A DNA stretch of 64,000 nt from Bacilli bacterium (GTDB lineage: Bacteria; Bacillota_I; Bacilli_A; RFN20; CAG-288): NCBI GenBank assembly GCA_022652945.1, contig JALCRV010000003.1:88128-152127 (forward strand). Reading direction: 5' to 3'. A program made the position numbers and the translations under genes. Each line of letters begins with the position of its first letter. Within the stretch, counting starts at the first letter, position 1. Under the pieces are notes generated by a model. It had not been told where the DNA came from. It made no database searches and saw only the letters and a list, made by a program, of their open reading frames with translations. This document shows, in pieces, positions 31,513 through 38,686 of this stretch.

Positions 31513-32352
31513 ATGAAGAAAGCTATCATGGCCATCATGTACGATTTCGATAAAACGCTCTCTTTAGACTACATGCAAAACTACGGCTTTATCCAAGCTT
31601 TAGGCATGACTCCGGAAGAGTTCTGGAAAGAGACGAATGATTTTTCAAATAAGTACGGAGCGGATAAGACTCTTTCTTATATGTATATGATGATTCTTAA
31701 GTGCAAGGAAAAGAATATTCCTTTGACAAAGGAATGGCTCGGATCTTTAGGAACTAACATCAAATTCTTTAAGGGAGTCACCACTTGGTTTAAGAGAATC
31801 AATGATTACGGATTGTCTAAAGGCGTCCAAGTCGAGCACTATCTGATCTCTTCAGGTAACAAGGAAATCGTCGATGGCTGCTTGATCGCTAAGGAGTTTA
31901 AGAAGATCTTCGGTTGTGAATTTATCTTCGACGGTCCGAAAAATGAACCGGTCTGGCCGAAGTTTGCGATTAACTATACGCAAAAGACCCAGTATTTCTT
32001 CCGTATTTCTAAAGGTGCCTTAAATCCTTCCGATGAAGAACAAGTAAATACTAAATCACCTAAGAGAAGAATCCCTTATCACAACATGGTTTACCTGGGG
32101 GATGGAATGACTGATATCCCAGCGATGATTCTCGTCCATAATAATGGCGGCAATTCTATCGCCCTTTATTCCCACGGTTCTAAGAAGAGCGACGTAGTTC
32201 AGCTTTTAAAAGACGATCGGGTTAACTATATCTGCCGAGCCGATTATTCCGCCGGCTCAGAACTCGATACGGTTATGAAGCTTATCGTCGACTCCATCTC
32301 CATCAAGAATACCTTGGAAAGAAAGCAGGAGAAGACAGTCGTTAAAGAATAG
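31513..32352 (+). CDS. HAD-superfamily hydrolase
   Basis: It has motif I 'MYDFDKTLS' (DxDxT) and motif IV 'LGDGMTDIPAM'. Confidence 0.75.
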   Translation: MKKAIMAIMYDFDKTLSLDYMQNYGFIQALGMTPEEFWKETNDFSNKYGADKTLSYMYMMILKCKEKNIPLTKEWLGSLGTNIKFFKGVTTWFKRINDYGLSKGVQVEHYLISSGNKEIVDGCLIAKEFKKIFGCEFIFDGPKNEPVWPKFAINYTQKTQYFFRISKGALNPSDEEQVNTKSPKRRIPYHNMVYLGDGMTDIPAMILVHNNGGNSIALYSHGSKKSDVVQLLKDDRVNYICRADYSAGSELDTVMKLIVDSISIKNTLERKQEKTVVKE

Positions 32353-32370
32353 AAGCCAACAAGGCAAATG

Positions 32371-32402
32371 AAAGGGACAGCCTTCTAACGCTGTCCCTTT
32401 TA
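32371..32402. terminator. Bidirectional rho-independent terminator
   Basis: AAGGGACAGC-cttctaac-GCTGTCCCTT followed by TTT. Confidence 0.75.
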
Positions 32403-32423
32403 TGATGCCTGATTAAAGATAAT

Positions 32424-33023
32424 CTATAGACGTTTGCCGCACTTTTTGCAGAAGACAGCATCGCCATCGTTGATGGTGCCGCAGTCGGGGCATAACTTAG
32501 TCGGCTTGCTGGCATTTAAGGGTTTAGGAAGCTTGGCTCCGCAGGTGGTGCAGAAAGCCATGCCGGCGGGGTTCTTAGCTCCGCAGATCGGGCAGGTGAC
32601 TCCACCTTCCGAGACAGAATCAATACTGGAGGTAGTATCAGCAGCTTTCTCCGGGAAAATAGTTGAATGTGCTTCCTGAGGTTCGCTGGGTTGATTTGTT
32701 GTGTTGCCACCAAAGAGATGAATGCCGTTTTGATTGGATTTATTGAAGTTCATCGAAGAACCATTGGCGGTTCTGAATCCGTTTCCGCGGCTGAAGGAAA
32801 ATAATAAAGAGCCGACGAAAAGCAAAGCGAATCCTCCGAATGAGAACAGGACAATAAAAGGAGACATAAAATCCTGTCCGGTTAAGGCGGAAGAGAAGGC
32901 GATGATGAAAGGAGTGAAAAACAGACCGAAACCCAGAACCATTAAAATGATTGAGAGGACTTTAAAGACTTTCTTTCGTTTTTCTTGCCCTTCGTTTTTA
33001 TTTGGATTCGGATTGTATTCCAT
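32424..33023 (-). CDS. 2-TM membrane protein with a C-terminal double zinc ribbon
   Basis: It has two hydrophobic helices and then 'CPICGAKNPAGMAFCTTCGAKL...CPDCGTINDGDAVFCKKCGKRL'. The RBS AAAGGAG precedes the ATG at 33023. The ORF is open to 33047. Confidence 0.7.
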   Translation of the reverse strand: MEYNPNPNKNEGQEKRKKVFKVLSIILMVLGFGLFFTPFIIAFSSALTGQDFMSPFIVLFSFGGFALLFVGSLLFSFSRGNGFRTANGSSMNFNKSNQNGIHLFGGNTTNQPSEPQEAHSTIFPEKAADTTSSIDSVSEGGVTCPICGAKNPAGMAFCTTCGAKLPKPLNASKPTKLCPDCGTINDGDAVFCKKCGKRL

Positions 33024-33090
33024 TGTTCTTTTCTCCTTTAATAACAACAGTAGTATATTGCTGTTTAAGATTAAAAAGAAACAGTTTAAC

Positions 33091-33110
33091 TAAAAAAGCC
33101 TCTCGGCTTG
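33091..33110 (-). terminator. Weak terminator after the 35-aa ORF
   Basis: The minus strand reads AAGCC-gaga-GGCTT followed by TTTTTT. The stem is short. Confidence 0.35.
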
Positions 33111-33181
33111 AAGGTGGGACAAAACTTAATAGATGTTTTGTTTTCTTTAAGTGTAGCGAGGCTTATAAACGGAGAGTTTAA

Positions 33182-33289
33182 TTAAGCTTTCTTCTGATCG
33201 TTAGCGTTAGTAGCCGGCTGAGGGTTGGCTTGCGTATTAGTAGCCTTCACATCAGCAGTCTGAACGTTCTTCTTATTCTTCTTGCTCAT
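33182..33289 (-). CDS. Small hydrophilic protein (35 aa), absent from the ORF track
   Basis: An ATG is preceded by AAGGAGGT at an 8-nt spacing. It encodes MSKKNKKNVQTADVKATNTQANPQPATNANDQKKA, and a hairpin plus T-run follows. Confidence 0.45.
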   Translation of the reverse strand: MSKKNKKNVQTADVKATNTQANPQPATNANDQKKA

Positions 33290-33574
33290 GCTCTTTTACC
33301 TCCTTGGCGAAGAATGTTATATATCCATTTATAAAGGGAAGCAAGGATTAAACGTGAGATTTACTATTTAGGGATAAAGGGGGAGTTAAAAACTTAATTC
33401 ACAATGATTTTTTAAGGGCGGATAGAGCCAAGAATAATACTTTTCTTCCTTTAAAACATCACCGTTTTTTAATGGGTGGGAAAATAAGCCTAAATAAGCG
33501 GACCTAACGGTCTATTGTAAGGATTCAAACAGTTAATATAGGCCGATTTTTAGGCCTGTTTTATATGTGTGGCA

Positions 33575-33604
33575 TTAGAAAAAAGCACATAAAAATGGTA
33601 TAAT
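33575..33604 (+). promoter_or_regulatory. Putative promoter of the TIR-like gene (TTAGAA-18-TGgTATAAT extended -10)
   Basis: A perfect TATAAT sits at 33599-33604 with TG at 33596-33597, 42 nt upstream of the ATG. A TAACC/GGTTA hairpin lies in the leader. Confidence 0.4.
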
Positions 33605-33646
33605 TTACTTAACCTGAGATTTGCGGGTTAGATAAGAAGGTATCAG

Positions 33647-34192
33647 ATGGAAAACGAAAACAAGCCTTTAAAGGCCTTCGTTTGTTGCTTTGATGACGAT
33701 AAGGCTTACGAGGAAAAACTCCAAGCTCTTTTAGGCGAGGAAAATATCGTCCTCGGTTCGAAGTTCAAAGATGCGGACACTAAAGACGTTAAAGCCTTTA
33801 TGAAGTCTTTAAGAGAAGGTGAATTAAAAGACACCAACGTGACTATCGTCCTGATCGGAGAGAATACGTGGAAACGTAAGTTGATCGATCTGGAGGTCTT
33901 GGCCTCCATGCAGGATGACCCTGCTAAAAAGAGAAACGGTATCATCGGGTTGATTCTTCCTAGCCGTCCCGATTATCAGAAGGGTCATTTTTACCGTTAC
34001 ACGATTCCGCAAAGAGTCTACGATAACTATCCCAACGGATACGTGAAGATTTATAACTGGAAAGAGGATGCCGGGTTTGTTAAACGGATCATGGCTAAGT
34101 CGGTTGAGAGAAAGGATATGCTGGTTCCTAACTTGGATCGGGCGCCTTACTCTAAAAACAAAGCTCCGACAGCTAAGAAGTGGGATAAGTAA
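33647..34192 (+). CDS. ThsB-like TIR-like domain protein (DUF1863-type)
   Basis: 'KAFVCCFDDD...' together with 'DTNVTIVLIGENTWKRKLIDLEVLASM...NGIIGLILP...VKIYNWKE' follows the ThsB/TIR-like pattern: FxSF-xxD, then VxxVLIGxxTxxRxWVxxEI, then IIGIxL. Confidence 0.65.
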   Translation: MENENKPLKAFVCCFDDDKAYEEKLQALLGEENIVLGSKFKDADTKDVKAFMKSLREGELKDTNVTIVLIGENTWKRKLIDLEVLASMQDDPAKKRNGIIGLILPSRPDYQKGHFYRYTIPQRVYDNYPNGYVKIYNWKEDAGFVKRIMAKSVERKDMLVPNLDRAPYSKNKAPTAKKWDK

Positions 34193-34204
34193 CTAAAAGT
34201 CCAT

Positions 34205-34273
34205 AAAAAAAGCAGAGCTGGAGATCGTTGATTCTTAGATGTTTCAGCAATCAACCTGAGCTCTGCTTTTTTT
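34205..34273. terminator. Long bidirectional terminator hairpin between the convergent TIR-like and repeat-protein genes
   Basis: The outer stem is AAAAAAAGCAGAGCT...AGCTCTGCTTTTTTT and the inner stem is GTTGATT...AATCAAC. Confidence 0.75.
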
Positions 34274-34895
34274 AATTGCTTTTCTTGTTGATTTCGTAAT
34301 GGAAGAGTTTCTTCAGGTCGTCTTCTTCAAGGAAAGGATAAAGGGCGTTGACATCGATCGAAGAATTGCCATGGATATAGGCATCTACCGCCTCTGATAA
34401 AGCTTCGTCGCTGACGAAAGGAAGGTATTTAGAGAAATCCTTTCCATTAGTCCAGGCATCCTTAAAGGCGTCGTCGATATCATCATCATCCATAAAAGGA
34501 AGCAGGGAGGAGAGACTTGTTCCGTTAAAGGAACCGCCGTTTTGCTTAAGAAAAGCTGCAAGTTTTTTGATGTCGTCATCATCTAGGAATGGCAATAGCT
34601 TATTAAGATTGACGTTTGTTCCTTTTCCGGAGATGATTTGGTCCACCAACTTACTTAAATCGTCATCATCGACAAAAGGCAGAAGCTTAGTAATATCCAG
34701 GCCTTTTTCTAAAAACTGGGAAAGCAGCGTCCCCAGATAATCATCGTCGAGGAAAGGATAAAGATTTTCCAATCTGACGTTATCGATCATCTGCGTGGGG
34801 CTTTCCATAATACGTTGAGCCAAAAGCTCCAGATCTTCCTCGTCTAAGAAGGGGAGCATGCTTTTGACACTATGGAAGTTTCCGTTGTTGAACAT
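34272..34895 (-). CDS. Acidic tandem-repeat protein (7 repeats of L-[LY]-P-F-[LVM]-D-D-D-D-[LI]-x-x-L), unknown family
   Basis: Seven repeats at ~26-31 aa spacing are visible: 'MLPFLDEEDLELL', 'LYPFLDDDYLGTL', 'LLPFVDDDDLSKL', 'LLPFLDDDDIKKL', 'LLPFMDDDDIDDA', 'YLPFVSDEALSEA' and 'LYPFLEEDDLKKL'. Confidence 0.7.
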   Translation of the reverse strand: MFNNGNFHSVKSMLPFLDEEDLELLAQRIMESPTQMIDNVRLENLYPFLDDDYLGTLLSQFLEKGLDITKLLPFVDDDDLSKLVDQIISGKGTNVNLNKLLPFLDDDDIKKLAAFLKQNGGSFNGTSLSSLLPFMDDDDIDDAFKDAWTNGKDFSKYLPFVSDEALSEAVDAYIHGNSSIDVNALYPFLEEDDLKKLFHYEINKKSN

Positions 34896-34896
34896 G

Positions 34897-35058
34897 TTAT
34901 TTTTCCTTCTTTCTTAACGAATATGATTCTTTATCATCCATCCAATAATTGACGGTTCTTTTCAACTGTTCGCTTTTATAAAGCTTCTGTTCCTCCAAGG
35001 CGGTTTCCTGAATTAAATTGAAGGCCTCATAAGAAGGATTGTTATTTTTTATATACAT
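34897..35058 (-). CDS. Small ORF (53 aa) bridging the XRE and repeat-protein genes, absent from the ORF track
   Basis: The ATG at 35058 lies 11 nt after a GGAGG and overlaps the XRE gene 3' end. The TAA at 34897-34899 lies 1 nt before the downstream ATG. It encodes MYIKNNNPSYEAFNLIQETALEEQKLYKSEQLKRTVNYWMDDKESYSLRKKEK. Confidence 0.45.
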   Translation of the reverse strand: MYIKNNNPSYEAFNLIQETALEEQKLYKSEQLKRTVNYWMDDKESYSLRKKEK

Positions 35059-35509
35059 AATGTGCTTTGCCTCCGTTTAGATAAACGTTTTCCCCGGTAG
35101 TAAGTTTAGGAAGAAGTTCTTGAATGTCGACTCTCAGTTCTTTATCTCTTATAGCTTGCAGAATCTGCAATCTTTCTTCCGGTGAGAACTGATAGAAAAC
35201 ATCTCCTAAATCAACTTTTAAGTCTCCTCTGATAATCGCCTTAACTACATATTCTCTGGAATGTCCGTTAAATAGATCGTGAGGATCGATCGTCTTTTTT
35301 TCGCTTAAGCAGAGGATGTCCTCAAAGGAGACGGAGAAAAGACGAGACATCTCAAGAAGGGAATCGATCGAAGGCAGGGACTGGCCTAGTTCCCACCTGG
35401 AGACCGCTTGACGGGTAACGAAAAGCTTTTCCGCCATTTGATCTTGAGACATTTTGTTCTTCGACCTGAGGTCGTTGATTTTGTTGCCGATGGCTTTTGA
35501 ATCCAGCAT
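35042..35509 (-). CDS. XRE-family HTH regulator with a C-terminal extension
   Basis: 'IGNKINDLRSKNKMSQDQMAEKLFVTRQAVSRWELGQSLPSIDSLLEMSRLFSVSFEDIL' is a classic HTH_3 domain. The C-terminal ~85 aa contains 'FYQFSPEERLQILQAI' and 'VDIQELLPKLT', which resemble the downstream repeat unit. Confidence 0.85.
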   Translation of the reverse strand: MLDSKAIGNKINDLRSKNKMSQDQMAEKLFVTRQAVSRWELGQSLPSIDSLLEMSRLFSVSFEDILCLSEKKTIDPHDLFNGHSREYVVKAIIRGDLKVDLGDVFYQFSPEERLQILQAIRDKELRVDIQELLPKLTTGENVYLNGGKAHYVYKK

Positions 35510-35555
35510 ATTTCTCTTAACCCGCTCCCTATGCTAATAATGTAAACCAGATGGA

Positions 35556-35587
35556 AGAAAAAAACACGCAAGCCGAAGTTGCGTGTT
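35556..35587 (-). terminator. Rho-independent terminator of the alpha/beta hydrolase gene
   Basis: The minus strand reads AACACGCAA-cttcggc-TTGCGTGTT followed by TTTTTTT. Confidence 0.8.
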
Positions 35588-35614
35588 TCTTATCTTTGCT
35601 TACTTTGGATTTCA

Positions 35615-36286
35615 TCACGCTTCTTTCTTATCTAAAAAAGGCTTGATAATCTGAAAGTATTTCGGATTATGGACTATATACGAATCATGAGTTTCTTTTT
35701 TTAAGAACAACAGTTCTGATTCATGGATATTTAAGTAAATACGTCTAGTATCTCTTTTATCCACCATATCTTTCTCCCCAGCGGTAATTAAGACCGGGCA
35801 TTTAATCATCCCCAGCTGTTGATCGGTAATATGCGGCTGAGAAATAATCATCTTCACTTTCTTATCGCGATGGAAGAAATAGTTAAGTTTAAAAAACCTG
35901 TACCATTTCTTGACTAGTCCGTGAGGAGAAGTGTTCGCTCCGGAGATTACCATCTTTCCAATCGAACCCGGCTTTTTAATCTCCATCATTAAAGCGACAA
36001 TCGCTCCATCGGAGAAACCGATAACGGTCGGTTTATCTAATTTAAATCTGGAAAGGAAAGCTAAAACGTCCCCAGCCATTAACTCATAAGAGATTTCTTG
36101 GGTGTCCTGGCTCTTCCCGTGGCAGCGGGAATCCAAAGCATAGACGTGATATCCGTCTTCAACTAAAAAGGGATAAAGCTTATCGAAGATTTCATGAGTC
36201 TCGCCGTTACCATGAAGAAGAATGATAGGTTTCCCCTTTCCGGCTTCTTCATAGTTAATGTTAATGCCGTTAATTTTGACTTCCAT
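35615..36286 (-). CDS. Alpha/beta-fold hydrolase
   Basis: It has 'PIILLHGNGETHEIF' and the nucleophile elbow 'GFSDGA'. The start is uncertain. A GTG at 36316 opens the ORF, and the ATG at 36286 (MEVKING...) is the first Met. Confidence 0.8.
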   Translation of the reverse strand: MEVKINGININYEEAGKGKPIILLHGNGETHEIFDKLYPFLVEDGYHVYALDSRCHGKSQDTQEISYELMAGDVLAFLSRFKLDKPTVIGFSDGAIVALMMEIKKPGSIGKMVISGANTSPHGLVKKWYRFFKLNYFFHRDKKVKMIISQPHITDQQLGMIKCPVLITAGEKDMVDKRDTRRIYLNIHESELLFLKKETHDSYIVHNPKYFQIIKPFLDKKEA

Positions 36287-36357
36287 ATTTTCATTATAAA
36301 ACAAATCTATATACACAGAGGTGCTTTTTACTTAAAAAGAGCATACTTTTGGGCACT

Positions 36358-36378
36358 TGTTAGGTGACAAGTTTAAGG
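36358..36378. repeat. Copy 3 of the ~20-nt motif (TGTTAGGTGACAAGTTTAAGG)
   Basis: It is near-identical to 20020-20040 and lies in the divergent hydrolase/tex intergenic region. Confidence 0.6.
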
Positions 36379-36538
36379 TAGCGGTGTTCTTTAAATCGCT
36401 TCTATTCTATTTAATTCAATTTGTCAGATGGGCTTTCTTACTTCTCTTCTTAAAAAGCCGTCTTCGTCCTTTCCCACTTTCAGTCATTCTAGGTTAAAAT
36501 ACTAAAGGTCGGTCCGTAGATATAAAAAGGAGTTTATT

Positions 36539-38686
36539 ATGGATATCACTAGCAAGATCAGCGCAGAATTAAATTTAAAGCCTACCCAGGTAGAAGCGGC
36601 AGTGAAACTGATGGATGAAGGGAACACCGTCCCCTTCATCGCTAGATATCGTAAGGAAGTCACCGGCAATCTCACCGATGCTGATTTAAGAAACCTCGAA
36701 GAGAGACTTAATTACTTAAGAAAGCTAGATGAAAGAGTCCAGGCCATCATCGGCTTAATCGATGAACAAGGTAAACTGACTCCCGAATTGAAAGACCAGC
36801 TTTTAAAGGTGGAGACTTTAACTGAAGCGGAAGACCTTTATAGGCCTTATAAGCAGAAAAGGAAGACCAGAGCCTCGATTGCTAAAGAGAAGGGCCTGGA
36901 GCCTTTAGCGGCCTATTTAAAGGCCGGACAAAAGACTAAGGATCTTAATACGTATGCCGCATCATTTATAAATCAAGAGAAGAAGGTAAATTCTGCTGAA
37001 GATGCTCTTAATGGAGCGAAGGATATCCTCGCTGAAGAGATATCCGATGAACCGAGATATCGTAAATATATTAAAGACTTAATCCGAGCGATCGGTTTAG
37101 TCTGCTCGAAAGAAATTAAGAAGGATGAAAAGGATACTTATGGTCAGTATAAAGACTATAAGGAACCGATCAGGAGTATTCCGCCTCATCGGATCTTAGC
37201 TCTTAATCGTGGGGAGAAAGAAGAATGCTTAAAAGTAAGTTTAAGTTATGACTATATGTCGATTTATGACTATATCGCCAGGGAATGGAAAGATAATAAC
37301 GAATATAAAGACATCCTTGGAGAAGTGATCGATGATTCTTTGAAAAGATTGATCCTACCTAGCGTGGAAAATGAAATCCGCGGAGAGCTTTTCGATAAGG
37401 CCCAGGATCAGTCGATGGAAGTCTTTAAGAAGAACCTGGCTTCGTTGCTGATGTATCCTCCGCTGAAGAATAAGAGAGTCTTGGGTTTTGATCCGGGTTT
37501 TAGAACCGGCTGCAAGTACGCTTTAGTTAATGAAAACGGGATTCCTGAATTGGTCGGGGTCAGTTATATCACTTCCGATAAGGAAGCCGACGTGATTAAG
37601 GCCAGAGAGCAGTTAAAAGGACTGCTAAGTAAAAACAAGATTGATTATATAGCCTTAGGTAACGGGACCGCTTCTCGAGAGTCAGAAAAGGAATTGAGGG
37701 AGATTGTTAAGGCAAATAATCTGCCGATTAAGATTCATATCGTCAATGAATCGGGGGCCAGCGTCTATTCAGCCTCTAAGCTCGGGGAGGAAGAATTCCC
37801 GGAGTTACCGGTTGAGAAGAGGAGCGCTATCTCTTTAGCAAGAAGATTGCAGGATCCTTTGAATGAACTGGTGAAGATCGAACCGAAGGCGATTGGAGTC
37901 GGGCAGTATCAGCACGATATGGATCAGACACGTTTGACCGATACCCTCCACGGGACGGTGGAGGATTGTGTTAATGAGGTCGGGGTGAATATCAATAATG
38001 CTTCTGTTTCGATTCTGTCATATATTTCTGGTATCAATACCGCTTTAGCCTCTAATATCTATGATTACTTAAAAGAGAATGGGACCTTTAAGAGCCGCGC
38101 GGAGATTAAGAAGGTCAAGAAGATGGGACCGAAGGCTTATGAGCAATGTGCGGGCTTTTTAAGAGTCTATGGGGGAGAGGAGCCTTTAGATACGACTTCC
38201 GTCCATCCGGAGAGTTATAAGCCAGCTAAGGAGATCCTGAAACTGACCAAGATTGATTTAATCAATGATGATGAAAAGACCAAGGAAGAAAAACTGAGAG
38301 ATTTCTCTCGCTCATCTTTCTTAACTAATCATCCGGATTTAGGTGAAGAGACTTTAAATGATATTTTGAAGGAAATCGTTAAGCCAGGAAGAGATATCCG
38401 AGATGAGGTAAAGATTGTAGAGTTGAATAATGAAGCGAGCGATATAAAAGATTTGAAAGTCGGGATGGTTTTAGAAGGTACGGTCAGGAATATCATGGAT
38501 TTCGGTATGTTCGTGGATATCAATGTCCATCAGGACGGCTTGGTTCATATCTCGGAAGTCGCGAATCATTATGTGAAGAATATCTCGGAGTTATATTCCA
38601 TAGGCGATGTCATTAAGGTCAAGGTTATCAGCGTCGATGTGGAAAAGAGAAGAATTGGACTATCGATTAAACAGCTAAATCATTAA
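36539..38686 (+). CDS. tex: Tex-family transcription accessory protein (S1 RNA-binding domain)
   Basis: It has 'VPFIARYRKEVTG', a YqgF-like 'GFDPGFRTGCK', HhH segments and a C-terminal S1 domain 'GMVLEGTVRNIMDFGMFVDI...GLVHISE'. Confidence 0.95.
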   Translation: MDITSKISAELNLKPTQVEAAVKLMDEGNTVPFIARYRKEVTGNLTDADLRNLEERLNYLRKLDERVQAIIGLIDEQGKLTPELKDQLLKVETLTEAEDLYRPYKQKRKTRASIAKEKGLEPLAAYLKAGQKTKDLNTYAASFINQEKKVNSAEDALNGAKDILAEEISDEPRYRKYIKDLIRAIGLVCSKEIKKDEKDTYGQYKDYKEPIRSIPPHRILALNRGEKEECLKVSLSYDYMSIYDYIAREWKDNNEYKDILGEVIDDSLKRLILPSVENEIRGELFDKAQDQSMEVFKKNLASLLMYPPLKNKRVLGFDPGFRTGCKYALVNENGIPELVGVSYITSDKEADVIKAREQLKGLLSKNKIDYIALGNGTASRESEKELREIVKANNLPIKIHIVNESGASVYSASKLGEEEFPELPVEKRSAISLARRLQDPLNELVKIEPKAIGVGQYQHDMDQTRLTDTLHGTVEDCVNEVGVNINNASVSILSYISGINTALASNIYDYLKENGTFKSRAEIKKVKKMGPKAYEQCAGFLRVYGGEEPLDTTSVHPESYKPAKEILKLTKIDLINDDEKTKEEKLRDFSRSSFLTNHPDLGEETLNDILKEIVKPGRDIRDEVKIVELNNEASDIKDLKVGMVLEGTVRNIMDFGMFVDINVHQDGLVHISEVANHYVKNISELYSIGDVIKVKVISVDVEKRRIGLSIKQLNH

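What the first reader, a model, noticed from the sequence alone, without database searches (positions are those of the whole stretch)
34272..35509. Three-gene operon: an XRE regulator, an overlapping 53-aa ORF and a 7-repeat acidic 'LPFxDDDDL' protein of unknown family
On the minus strand, an HTH_3 regulator (155 aa) comes first. It is followed by a 53-aa ORF whose ATG overlaps the regulator's last codons and whose stop lies 1 nt before the next ATG. That next gene encodes a 207-aa protein made almost entirely of seven ~26-31-aa repeats with the consensus L-[LY]-P-F-[LV]-D-D-D-D-[LI]-x-x-L-x(6-8)-G. The regulator's own C-terminal extension contains two degenerate copies of the same unit ('FYQFSPEERLQILQAI', 'IQELLPKLT'). 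This suggests the two proteins share a fold and may interact, for example through regulator sequestration. The very acidic solenoid-like repeat protein could be a DNA mimic or a scaffold. I do not recognise the repeat as a named family. The operon is convergent with the TIR-like gene and shares its terminator.
Basis: partly seen in the sequence, partly recalled or inferred. Interest (0 to 1): 0.65.

Follow-up and report, generated by a model that had tools for sequence, protein, structure and literature searches.

The report
Split XRE regulator with acidic repeat partner
This is a conserved, self-contained bacterial gene switch in which a DNA-binding regulator is always paired with, or fused to, an undescribed acidic helical-repeat protein and sits behind a conserved palindromic DNA site; the 53-codon gene between them and the neighbouring TIR gene are not conserved parts of it.

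Summary

- **Repeat protein:** It belongs to a large family with no name (649 representatives). AlphaFold predicts a confident alpha-solenoid (pLDDT 93.9). It has no Pfam family and no close solved structure, and is only distantly HEAT-like.
- **Pairing:** In 30 of 34 related loci across Bacillota, an XRE gene lies directly upstream. In 3 more loci the HTH and the repeats form one polypeptide. The two genes co-diverge (r=0.73).
- **Shared repeat:** The regulator's C-terminal domain aligns in register with the repeat (hhalign; 0 of 150 shuffles reach the score). In natural fusions (L060, L061) it runs straight into the array.
- **New palindrome:** CGCAA-N7-TTGCG lies about 60-75 nt upstream of the XRE start in 21 of 28 loci (0.4 expected). 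It abuts the -35 and is probably the operator.
- **53-aa ORF:** It recurs only in the closest relative. Most operons have no spacer. However, every spacer of 85 nt or more is bridged by an unrelated ORF, which suggests a translational relay.
- **TIR gene:** It is not linked; it only shares the terminator.

Best reading: an autoregulated two-subunit XRE regulator. The DNA-mimic idea is untested. The acidic tetrads sit at helix N-caps.

The parts
35567..35583 (-). Perfect palindrome CGCAACTTCGGCTTGCG (CGCAA-N7-TTGCG), the putative XRE operator. In this window it is also the stem of a hairpin followed by a T-run, just after the upstream hydrolase gene.
   Evidence: the same motif (2 or fewer mismatches, invariant CAA/TTG) occurs upstream of XRE in 21 of 28 loci, against 0.37 expected; it is the only perfect copy in the 2.09-Mb genome; hairpin.
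35539..35567 (-). Putative promoter: -35 GTGTTT (35567-35562, overlapping the operator), a 17-nt spacer, and -10 TACATT (35544-35539).
   Evidence: Read from the sequence by analogy with relatives, which have TTGC-GTGACA-N17-TACAAT/TATAAT. The consensus scan did not call it. Inferred.
35042..35509 (-). XRE-family regulator, 155 aa. It has an HTH_3 domain (about residues 1-68) and a C-terminal domain (about 80-150) of roughly 2.5 degenerate LPF-type helical units.
34897..35058 (-). 53-aa hydrophilic bridging ORF. It overlaps the XRE stop by 17 nt and ends 1 nt before the repeat gene's ATG. It is lineage-specific.
34272..34895 (-). Acidic repeat protein, 207 aa, with seven LPF-x-DDDD units. Predicted alpha-solenoid, distantly HEAT-like.
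34204..34274 (.). Bidirectional intrinsic terminator (A-run, long hairpin, T-run) shared with the convergent TIR-like gene.
   Evidence: -28.8 kcal/mol, z -5.05, 0 of 200 shuffles fold as well.

Best explanation
The locus encodes an autoregulated, two-subunit XRE transcription factor.

- **DNA binding.** The XRE protein probably binds as a dimer to the palindrome CGCAA-N7-TTGCG. This site abuts the -35 of the operon's own promoter, so binding would repress it.
- **The partner.** The regulator's short C-terminal domain is made of about 2.5 degenerate copies of the unit that builds the downstream acidic solenoid. The solenoid is the detachable remainder of the regulator's C-terminal domain. It docks head-to-tail on the XRE tail, as it does covalently in the natural fusions. 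It would supply the oligomerisation and/or signal-sensing surface that controls operator binding.
- **Stoichiometry.** Translational coupling keeps the two subunits in balance. Most relatives have overlapping stop and start codons. In this window a 53-codon relay ORF bridges the gap.

**Shown here:** gene order, coupling geometry, co-location, co-divergence, fusions, repeat homology, the predicted fold and the conserved palindrome.

**Inferred:** DNA binding at the palindrome, the physical complex and its geometry, and the direction of regulation. The signal is unknown. A cationic ligand is only a guess from the acidic surface.
For: - **Co-location.** Of 34 genome-contig loci with a repeat gene, 30 have an XRE gene immediately upstream on the same strand. 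In 28 of these the XRE has the same C-terminal domain. In 3 loci the HTH and repeats are one ORF. Metagenome loci L001-L009 show the same arrangement.
- **Coupling.** In 22 of 30 split loci the two genes abut or overlap, with gaps of -53 to +9 nt.
- **Co-divergence.** XRE and partner distances correlate with r=0.73. None of 2000 Mantel permutations reaches this.
- **Fusions.** Of 221 retrieved repeat proteins, 42 carry the same HTH subfamily N-terminally. In L060 (P0121) the XRE with its own C-terminal domain runs in frame into the array. In L061 (P0138) the XRE tail is joined directly to a 7-unit array.
- **Shared repeat.** hhalign of the C-terminal domain against the array is in register with score 24.9, and 0 of 150 column shuffles reach it. 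The two AF2 models share the same helix-length pattern.
- **Operator.** The palindrome is present in 21 of 28 loci against 0.37 expected. It sits at a near-constant -62 to -74 from the ATG when no leader ORF intervenes, followed by GTGACA-N17-TAnAAT. L060 has it too. It is the only perfect copy in the window's own genome.
- **Relay ORFs.** All 10 spacers of 85 nt or more are bridged by an ORF. Per-locus shuffle probabilities are 0.015-0.29, and the product over 8 lineages is about 4e-9.
Against: - No experiment or complex prediction was possible.
- In L034 and L036 the XRE is HTH-only (72-74 aa) yet still paired, so docking through the C-terminal domain cannot be universal.
- A single-unit HMM does not recognise the XRE tail above shuffles, and hhalign probability is only 27-29%.
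- The window's -35 is poor (GTGTTT). Here the palindrome also looks like the upstream gene's terminator, so its operator role in this particular locus is inferred from relatives.
- There is no recurrent neighbour gene and no second perfect site in the genome, so no regulon or signal is identified.
Confidence: 0.5

Rival explanations
1. The repeat protein is an antagonist or anti-repressor. It would either heterodimerise with the XRE tail in the manner of SinI with SinR, or cover the HTH as an acidic DNA mimic in the manner of DMP19 with NHTF. Either way it would release the operator.
For: - The partner shares a repeat type with the regulator's tail, as SinI shares SinR's C-terminal helices.
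- The protein is very acidic (pI 4.2, net charge -22; family median pI 4.3).
- There is precedent for a DNA mimic neutralising an XRE-family repressor (PMC3384305).
- HTH-only XREs in L034 and L036 are still paired, which fits a contact with the HTH.
Against: - Strict 1:1 translational coupling from the repressor's own operon is unlike SinI, which has separate control (established knowledge).
- 42 of 221 family members have the array permanently fused to the HTH. That is hard to reconcile with a sequestering antagonist.
- The acidic tetrad maps to the N-cap and first helical turn. Position +3 is D, S, E or N in 96% of units, and positions +4 and +5 are acidic in 84-88%. This is a structural role.
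- The XRE domains are not notably basic: median net charge is -1 for the HTH part and +0.5 for the tail.
Confidence: 0.2
2. The system is a peptide-sensing quorum regulator of the RNPP type (XRE HTH plus helical-repeat sensor). The small adjacent ORF, the 53-aa ORF here, would encode the signalling pro-peptide.
For: - The best structural matches of the XRE model are ComR, PlcR and Rgg.
- The architecture of HTH plus alpha-solenoid plus a small, poorly conserved adjacent ORF is reminiscent of RNPP systems.
- Small ORFs sit either between the two genes or between the operator and XRE in many loci.
Against: - The fold matches are driven by the HTH (TMq about 0.4).
- The repeats are not TPRs. No TPR hit was found.
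- The 53-aa peptide is hydrophilic, with no signal peptide or hydrophobic SHP-like segment (sequence).
- 22 of 30 split operons have no intervening ORF.
- The bridging ORFs share no motif.
Confidence: 0.07
3. The two genes are co-transcribed but act separately. The XRE would be a generic autorepressor, and the solenoid a scaffold or binding protein for some unrelated cellular target such as cations, polyamines or a basic protein. A toxin-antitoxin-like or defence-linked pair is another version of this idea.
For: - Contexts vary and no common regulon was found.
- The module is patchy among relatives: 16 of 61 genomes, and 1 of 9 other genomes in the same genus.
- In one clade a polyamine-synthesis operon lies directly downstream.
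- A BlaR1-type membrane protein carries the same repeats after its last TM helix.
Against: - Repeated independent HTH-array fusions and the shared repeat type argue for one functional unit.
- There is no toxin-like or enzymatic domain, no PADLOC hit, and only a weak PHROGs portal hit at E 0.0065.
- There is no match in phages or plasmids.
- TIR is absent from all other loci.
Confidence: 0.13

Closest known systems
RNPP-type regulators (PlcR, ComR, Rgg, PrgX, AimR)
   Same: An N-terminal XRE-type HTH is joined to a C-terminal alpha-helical repeat solenoid that controls DNA binding. They are the best Foldseek matches of the XRE model. Small adjacent ORFs occur.
   Different: The repeats here are short LPF/HEAT-like units (7-residue helix plus 13-residue helix), not TPRs. 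The solenoid is usually a separate polypeptide. It is strongly acidic. No conserved secreted peptide is present.
SinR-SinI (and SlrR-SlrA) of Bacillus subtilis
   Same: An XRE-HTH regulator has a C-terminal helical module, and that same module is also encoded on a separate small partner protein from the same locus (PDB 1B0N appears among the hits).
   Different: SinI is an antagonist with its own regulation. The fold is a two-helix hook, not a multi-repeat solenoid. In this system the partner is translationally coupled and is often fused to the regulator.
DMP19-NHTF of Neisseria (a DNA mimic that neutralises an XRE-family repressor; PMC3384305)
   Same: An acidic all-helical protein acts with an XRE-family autoregulator that binds a palindromic operator in its own 5' region.
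   Different: DMP19 is not a repeat protein. It shares no domain with NHTF and was found by pull-down rather than by gene fusion. Here no DNA-like charge spacing could be examined.
HEAT / PBS-lyase HEAT-like repeats (Pfam HEAT_2, HEAT_PBS) and Pfam TTRAP PF14203 (PDB 2L7K)
   Same: The repeats align in register with the HEAT_2 repeats of a NACHT protein, P0179 (BLASTP E 6e-13). An LPFMDED-type motif is shared with the 76-aa protein 2L7K (E 0.013), and TTRAP scores 26.8 bits. An alpha-solenoid is predicted.
   Different: No HEAT-family Pfam model hits the window protein. TTRAP falls just under its cut-off. The best PDB fold matches are PUF proteins, at only TMq about 0.55 and E of 0.016 or more.

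Membership tests
XRE / Cro-C1 HTH_3 regulators (PF01381) | An HTH_3 domain scoring above the Pfam gathering score | tested here: met
   44.3 bits against a cut-off of 23, residues 13-64; many solved XRE HTH domains match (9k3w, P22 C2, ImmR, SinR).
XRE / Cro-C1 HTH_3 regulators (PF01381) | A palindromic operator in the regulator's own promoter region (autoregulation) | tested here: inconclusive
   A conserved CGCAA-N7-TTGCG site abuts the -35 in 21 of 28 loci. Binding itself was not tested.
Pfam TTRAP (PF14203) | Whole-protein score at or above the gathering score (27 bits) | tested here: not met
   26.8 bits, with one 26-residue stretch only; no genomic match over the cut-off.
HEAT repeat superfamily | Tandem helix-turn-helix units of about 30-40 residues forming an alpha-solenoid | tested here: met
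   the AF2 model (pLDDT 93.9) has 7 units, each a short helix plus a 12-13-residue helix; solenoid (PUF, HEAT-containing) matches only.
HEAT repeat superfamily | A significant match to a HEAT-family profile | tested here: not met
   no HEAT model at E of 1 or below. The only link is indirect, an in-register BLASTP match to the HEAT_2-rich protein P0179.
RNPP quorum-sensing regulators | A TPR-type C-terminal sensor domain | tested here: not met
   no TPR family hit in the XRE, the partner or the fused homologues.
RNPP quorum-sensing regulators | A cognate small secreted pro-peptide gene conserved next to the regulator | tested here: not met
   the small ORFs are absent from most loci, are unrelated in sequence, and here are hydrophilic.
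SinR/SinI-type regulator-antagonist pair | The partner consists of the same module as the regulator's C-terminal domain | tested here: met
   in-register hhalign, with 0 of 150 shuffles reaching the score; same helix pattern; natural fusions.
SinR/SinI-type regulator-antagonist pair | The partner antagonises DNA binding by forming a heteromer | not testable with these tools
   This needs EMSA or SEC, or at least AF-multimer.
DNA mimic proteins | Strongly acidic surface | tested here: met
   pI 4.21, net charge -22, 19% Asp+Glu (40 of 207 residues). The family median pI is 4.30.
DNA mimic proteins | Carboxylate spacing that mimics the phosphate backbone, and competition with DNA for a DNA-binding protein | not testable with these tools
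The acidic tetrad maps to helix N-caps, which offers a structural explanation.
Thoeris or other TIR defence system | Co-conservation with the TIR gene or an effector | tested here: not met
   the TIR protein matches no ORF in any of the 44 related loci; no PADLOC hit for the repeat protein or the 53-aa ORF.
Type II toxin-antitoxin (XRE antitoxin plus toxin) | A recognisable toxin domain in the partner | tested here: not met
   no toxin family. The partner is a pure repeat solenoid.

The most novel reading that the evidence does not exclude
The LPF-D4 solenoid defines a new class of modular sensor domain for XRE regulators in Bacillota. It exists in split, fused and membrane-tethered (BlaR1-M56) forms. 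Its acidic ridge would bind a cationic signal such as polyamines, metal ions or cationic peptides, and this would switch operator binding. Where the two subunit genes have drifted apart, non-conserved relay ORFs are kept under selection purely to preserve translational coupling.
Probability: 0.15. Interest if true: 0.65.

Novelty: new variant of a known kind. Interest (0 to 1): 0.45.

Why it matters
XRE regulators are among the most numerous bacterial transcription factors, and most of their C-terminal domains are unannotated.

This work defines a widespread and so far unnamed partner or domain family. It has 649 representatives at 50% identity, found in uncultured Bacilli, Erysipelotrichaceae, Acholeplasmataceae, Izemoplasmatales, Clostridia and a Lacticaseibacillus. 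It also gives a testable operator (CGCAA-N7-TTGCG) and natural fission and fusion variants that predict how the subunits join.

The family would be a compact model for three questions: how helical-repeat domains control HTH proteins, whether repeat proteins can work as detachable regulator subunits, and whether spacer ORFs are maintained only for translational coupling.

The locus has no visible link to defence, so the TIR neighbour should not be read as a partner.

Tried and rejected
- **Known families.** Pfam, NCBIfam, PADLOC and PHROGs gave nothing for the repeat protein beyond sub-threshold TTRAP and a weak portal hit. They gave nothing at all for the 53-aa ORF.
- **Fold searches.** Foldseek of the repeat model against PDB and BFVD found no match at E of 0.001 or below, only generic solenoids.
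- **Mobile elements.** tblastn against phage and plasmid collections found no match.
- **RNA families.** Rfam found nothing over 32000-37000. The spacer RNA fold is not significant (z -1.57).
- **Transcript test.** RNA-seq could not be used. Only DNA runs from sludge and wastewater metagenomes hold the locus.
- **Unit HMM.** A single-unit HMM against XRE tails was not above shuffles for the window protein. I relied on profile-profile comparison instead.
- **53-aa ORF homology.** The search found only the ORF itself. Gap ORFs compared all-against-all share no similarity, except between close lineages.
- **Regulon.** A genome-wide operator scan found one perfect site (this locus) and about the chance number of one-mismatch sites.
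- **Neighbour genes.** Clustering found no universal partner. ABC exporters recur in 5 lineages, and polyamine genes in one clade.
- **PF25870.** This family is precomputed for the window protein, but it is not in the local Pfam library or the literature.
- **Frameshift idea.** I considered a programmed +1 frameshift joining the 53-aa ORF to the repeat gene (AAA-TAA-C-ATG). I set it aside because an SD (AAGGA) and an ATG are correctly placed for ordinary re-initiation.
Full report
**1. What is in the sequence**

On the minus strand there are three back-to-back ORFs.
- XRE is 35509..35042 (155 aa).
- A 53-aa ORF is 35058..34897. Its ATG lies 17 nt inside the XRE gene, and its TAA is followed by one base and then the next ATG.
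- A 207-aa ORF is 34895..34272.

The first protein has an HTH_3 domain (44.3 bits against a cut-off of 23). The 207-aa protein contains seven units anchored on Pro-Phe at residues 15, 47, 73, 102, 133, 159 and 187. It has pI 4.21 and net charge -22. No Pfam or NCBIfam model passes its cut-off. The best hit is TTRAP PF14203 at 26.8 against 27 bits.

Downstream, a long hairpin flanked by an A-run and a U-run (34204-34274; -28.8 kcal/mol, z -5.05) serves both this operon and the convergent ThsB_TIR-like gene at 33647..34192.

**2. The repeat protein is a member of a large, unnamed family**

A word-indexed search found 96 relatives. An exhaustive HMMER scan of 1.84 billion representatives found 649 at E of 0.001 or below. 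None carries an informative name.

Forty-seven stand-alone homologues of about 200 aa align over their full length (A1). Only the P-F pairs, a few leucines and the C-terminal cap (D193, F198) are nearly invariant.

From 300 units the profile is [LMFI][LYAI]-P-F-[LMVA]-[DSEN]-[DE]-[DE]-[DAEG]-[LIV]-x-x-[LIA]-[FAVL].

AlphaFold2 with A1 gives a confident alpha-solenoid (pLDDT 93.9, pTM 0.82). Each unit is a 7-residue helix (xxLLPFL), a 2-residue turn and a 12-13-residue helix. In unit 1, D18 is the N-cap and E19-E20-D21 are the first helical turn. The 'DDDD' therefore corresponds to an N-cap or capping box plus helix-dipole positions. Position +3 is D, S, E or N in 96% of units, and positions +4 and +5 are acidic in 84-88%. 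The acidity is thus at least partly structural, although it still produces a continuous negative ridge.

Foldseek finds no PDB or viral match at E of 0.001 or below. The best are PUF/Pumilio solenoids (TMq about 0.55).

By sequence, the family profile weakly matches the 76-aa NMR structure 2L7K through an 'LPFMDED' motif (E 0.013). The window protein also aligns in register with the HEAT_2 repeats of a NACHT protein (P0179, BLASTP E 6e-13). I therefore call it a divergent HEAT-like repeat, not a member of any curated family.

**3. The XRE gene and the repeat gene form one conserved module**

A scan of one genome per species returned 35 loci. I built HMMs of the XRE and of the repeat protein and searched all ORFs of all loci.
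- 30 loci have an XRE gene immediately upstream on the same strand. In 28 of these the XRE HMM is covered to position 144 or beyond, which means the same C-terminal domain.
- 3 loci (L037, L039, L043) have the HTH and repeats in one ORF.
- One locus (L038) has no XRE.
- One locus (L044) was a spurious hit.

Metagenome contigs L001-L009 show the same arrangement. In 22 of the 30 split loci the genes abut or overlap, with gaps of -53 to +9 nt.

Pairwise distances of the XREs and of the partners' C-terminal 115 residues correlate (r=0.73). None of 2000 Mantel permutations reaches this value.

Hosts are uncultured Bacilli, Erysipelotrichaceae, Acholeplasmataceae, Izemoplasmatales, Clostridia and, for the fused form, Lacticaseibacillus sharpeae. 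The window's genome (2.09 Mb, from a sludge or wastewater metagenome) has a single copy. Among 60 relatives the module is patchy: 16 of 61 genomes including the window's own, and 1 of 9 other genomes in the genus. It is not on known phages or plasmids.

**4. The regulator's tail is made of the same repeat, and fusions show how the parts join**

The XRE alignment (A2) has a conserved C-terminal domain: GH.R..I…G…(V)DL…FY.FS..ER…L..IK…I……L…LT..E. Izemoplasmatales members carry extra copies of the [FW]-x-x-L-[ST]-x-x-E-[RK] unit at a period of about 28 residues.

hhalign of A2 against A1 aligns 'VVKAIIRGDLKVDLGDVFYQFSPEERLQILQAIRDKEL-RVDIQELLPKLTTG' with 'LVDQIISGKGTNVNLNKLLPFLDDDDIKKLAAFLKQNGGSFNGTSLSSLLPFMDDD'. 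The E-value is 6-7e-4. The score of 24.9 compares with 10.8 ± 1.9 (maximum 17.2) for 150 column-shuffled controls.

AF2 of the XRE (pLDDT 91.6) gives helices 101-107/110-121 and 129-135/138-144. This is the same short-helix, turn, long-helix pattern, occurring twice and preceded by helix 85-94. A 22-residue unit HMM does not detect the tail above shuffles, so the homology is remote. 'SPEER' and 'TTGEN' keep only the S/T-x-x-E capping box of the DDDD position.

Of 221 retrieved repeat proteins, 42 also carry the XRE-HTH. Pfam confirms HTH_3 in about a dozen that were checked. Two loci are literal fusions of this very module.
- P0121 (L060) is a complete 277-aa gene. The XRE with its first tail unit ('VFGQFTGDERMILLKAIKNGKID') continues in frame into five canonical units, and no separate partner gene follows.
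- P0138 (L061) joins the XRE tail ('…LTMNERQYMEEIMKITNMLPFL…') directly to a 7-unit array. The HTH upstream is separated only by a frameshift.

These Rosetta-stone cases place the XRE tail's C-terminal end against the partner's N-terminal unit at normal repeat spacing.

There are exceptions. In L034 and L036 the XRE is HTH-only, and the partner instead has a 60-residue N-terminal extension.

**5. A conserved palindrome: the likely operator**

Reading the 160 nt upstream of each XRE revealed CGCAA-N7-TTGCG, often extended to GCAAC-N5-GTTGC.

Allowing up to 2 mismatches with invariant CAA/TTG cores, 21 of 28 loci have a site within 350 nt. Shuffled upstream regions give 0.37 loci on average, with a maximum of 2.

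Where no leader ORF intervenes, the site sits at -62 to -84 from the ATG. It is followed immediately by GTGACA, a 17-nt spacer and TACAAT/TATAAT (L025, L031, L032, L016, L027). Occupancy would therefore occlude the -35. L060 has the site too.

In the window the site is perfect (35583..35567 on the minus strand). Here it also forms a hairpin followed by TTTTTTTCTT, 27 nt after the hydrolase stop. It thus doubles as that gene's terminator. The -35 is degenerate (GTGTTT) and the -10 is TACATT.

It is the only perfect site in the 2.09-Mb genome, where about 1.4 would be expected by chance (my estimate from the base composition). One of ten one-mismatch sites (AGCAACCTTTGGTTGCG, contig C5:89152) lies 77 nt upstream of another XRE gene with a similar recognition helix. 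No regulon beyond autoregulation is evident.

**6. The 53-aa ORF**

Its only homologue is in the closest relative (L045/L046, where the partner is 77% identical). There it has the same length, the same overlap with XRE, the same 1-nt spacing and 68% identity.

Substitutions are spread 14/9/13 over the three codon positions. dN/dS is 0.37 (dS 0.59), against 0.065 (dS 2.3) for the repeat gene. The chance that the frame stays open after 36 random substitutions is about 0.10. This is weak evidence for coding constraint.

No other relative exists among 5.8 billion proteins. L001, the next relative, has a 58-aa ORF in the same place with no similarity.

However, all ten loci with a spacer of 85 nt or more have an ORF that starts near the XRE stop and ends near the partner's start. 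Per-locus shuffle probabilities are 0.015-0.29, and the product over eight lineages is about 4e-9. The tolerance windows were chosen after seeing the data.

The ATG of the window's small ORF sits where compact loci have the partner's ATG. It lies just after the GGAGG encoded by the conserved Gly-Gly of the XRE tail.

My reading is that these are relay ORFs, kept open so that ribosomes carry through from XRE to the partner. A fast-evolving functional peptide is not excluded.

In another clade a 46-58-aa ORF lies between the operator and XRE instead (L004, L007, L009, L013).

**7. No link to TIR or defence**

The TIR protein matches nothing in any other locus. PADLOC has no hit for the partner or the small ORF. 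Neighbours vary: ABC exporters recur in 5 lineages, a polyamine-synthesis operon in one clade, and Tex or MntP in the window's clade.

**8. Mechanism**

The best-supported reading (about 0.5) is an autoregulated two-subunit XRE regulator. The HTH dimer sits on the palindrome, and the acidic solenoid is the detachable rest of the C-terminal domain. The solenoid docks head-to-tail on the tail units and provides oligomerisation and/or sensing.

The antagonist or DNA-mimic version (about 0.2) has precedent in SinI-SinR and DMP19-NHTF (PMC3384305). It fits poorly with constitutive coupling and with the many covalent fusions.

An RNPP-like peptide system (about 0.07) and functionally independent genes (about 0.13) are less likely.

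The signal is unknown. A BlaR1-M56 protein carrying the same repeats after its last TM helix (P0224) hints that the array can act as a sensor domain.

**9. Novelty**

Searches for the Pfam TTRAP family's full name, for PF25870, and for XRE together with HEAT repeat turned up no paper on such a system. Another first-stage note independently saw an XRE-'LAPF' repeat fusion in a different genome.

I rate this a new variant of a known kind (an XRE regulator with a helical-repeat control domain). It is of moderate interest.

Noticed in passing
own genome G000 contig C5:89152-89168 (outside the window): A one-mismatch copy of the palindrome (AGCAACCTTTGGTTGCG, a perfect GCAAC-N5-GTTGC) lies 77 nt upstream of a different XRE gene (C5:89075..88326, 249 aa). 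That protein has an HTH with a similar 'SRQAVSKWE' helix, an acidic linker and TM segments. This could reflect a shared operator type or cross-regulation.
   Followed up: partly
L004:5376-5552, L009:4403-4552, L013:3367-3543, L007:4413-4553: In one clade a 46-58-aa ORF lies between the conserved palindrome (at -199 to -214) and the XRE start, and overlaps that start by 4 nt. The L004, L009 and L013 versions are homologous (E 1e-16 to 3e-4). L021, L022 and L026 have a different basic 43-aa ORF in the same place.
   Followed up: partly
P0224 (821 aa, metagenomic): A BlaR1-type M56 peptidase membrane protein carries about 8 'LAPFLDSEDL' units after its last predicted TM helix. The same repeat is therefore also used, probably outside the cell, in a signal-transducing membrane protease.
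   Followed up: no
L027:3788-4342, L029:3596-4345, L034:1138-1698, L036:3803-4366: Some partner proteins have an N-terminal extension of 60-125 residues that begins with a shared motif (M.[LY].K.[IL].NG…[VI]), followed by an acidic linker and then four repeats. In L034 and L036 the cognate XRE has lost its C-terminal domain.
   Followed up: no
L004:6694-10176, L007:6097-9565, L009:5696-9178: In one clade a fused arginine/ornithine decarboxylase-agmatine deiminase gene and an N-carbamoylputrescine amidase-like CN_hydrolase gene (putrescine synthesis) lie directly downstream on the same strand, followed by mntP. This may or may not be a regulated target.
   Followed up: no
window 35556-35590: The operator palindrome is extended to a 10-13-bp stem and followed by TTTTTTTCTT on the minus strand, 27 nt after the stop of the alpha/beta-hydrolase gene (35615..36316). 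It therefore probably also terminates that gene. The T-run is absent in relatives.
   Followed up: partly
L061:38-400: The HTH part and the tail-array part of a full fusion gene are separated by a single frameshift near 'LINIFD/LEEILCLNE'. This is either an assembly error or a recent pseudogenisation or fission.
   Followed up: partly
window 34272-34895: The protein database's precomputed annotation lists PF25870.2 for this protein. That accession is absent from the local Pfam copy and from the searchable literature, so a very recent Pfam entry may already cover the family.
   Followed up: partly
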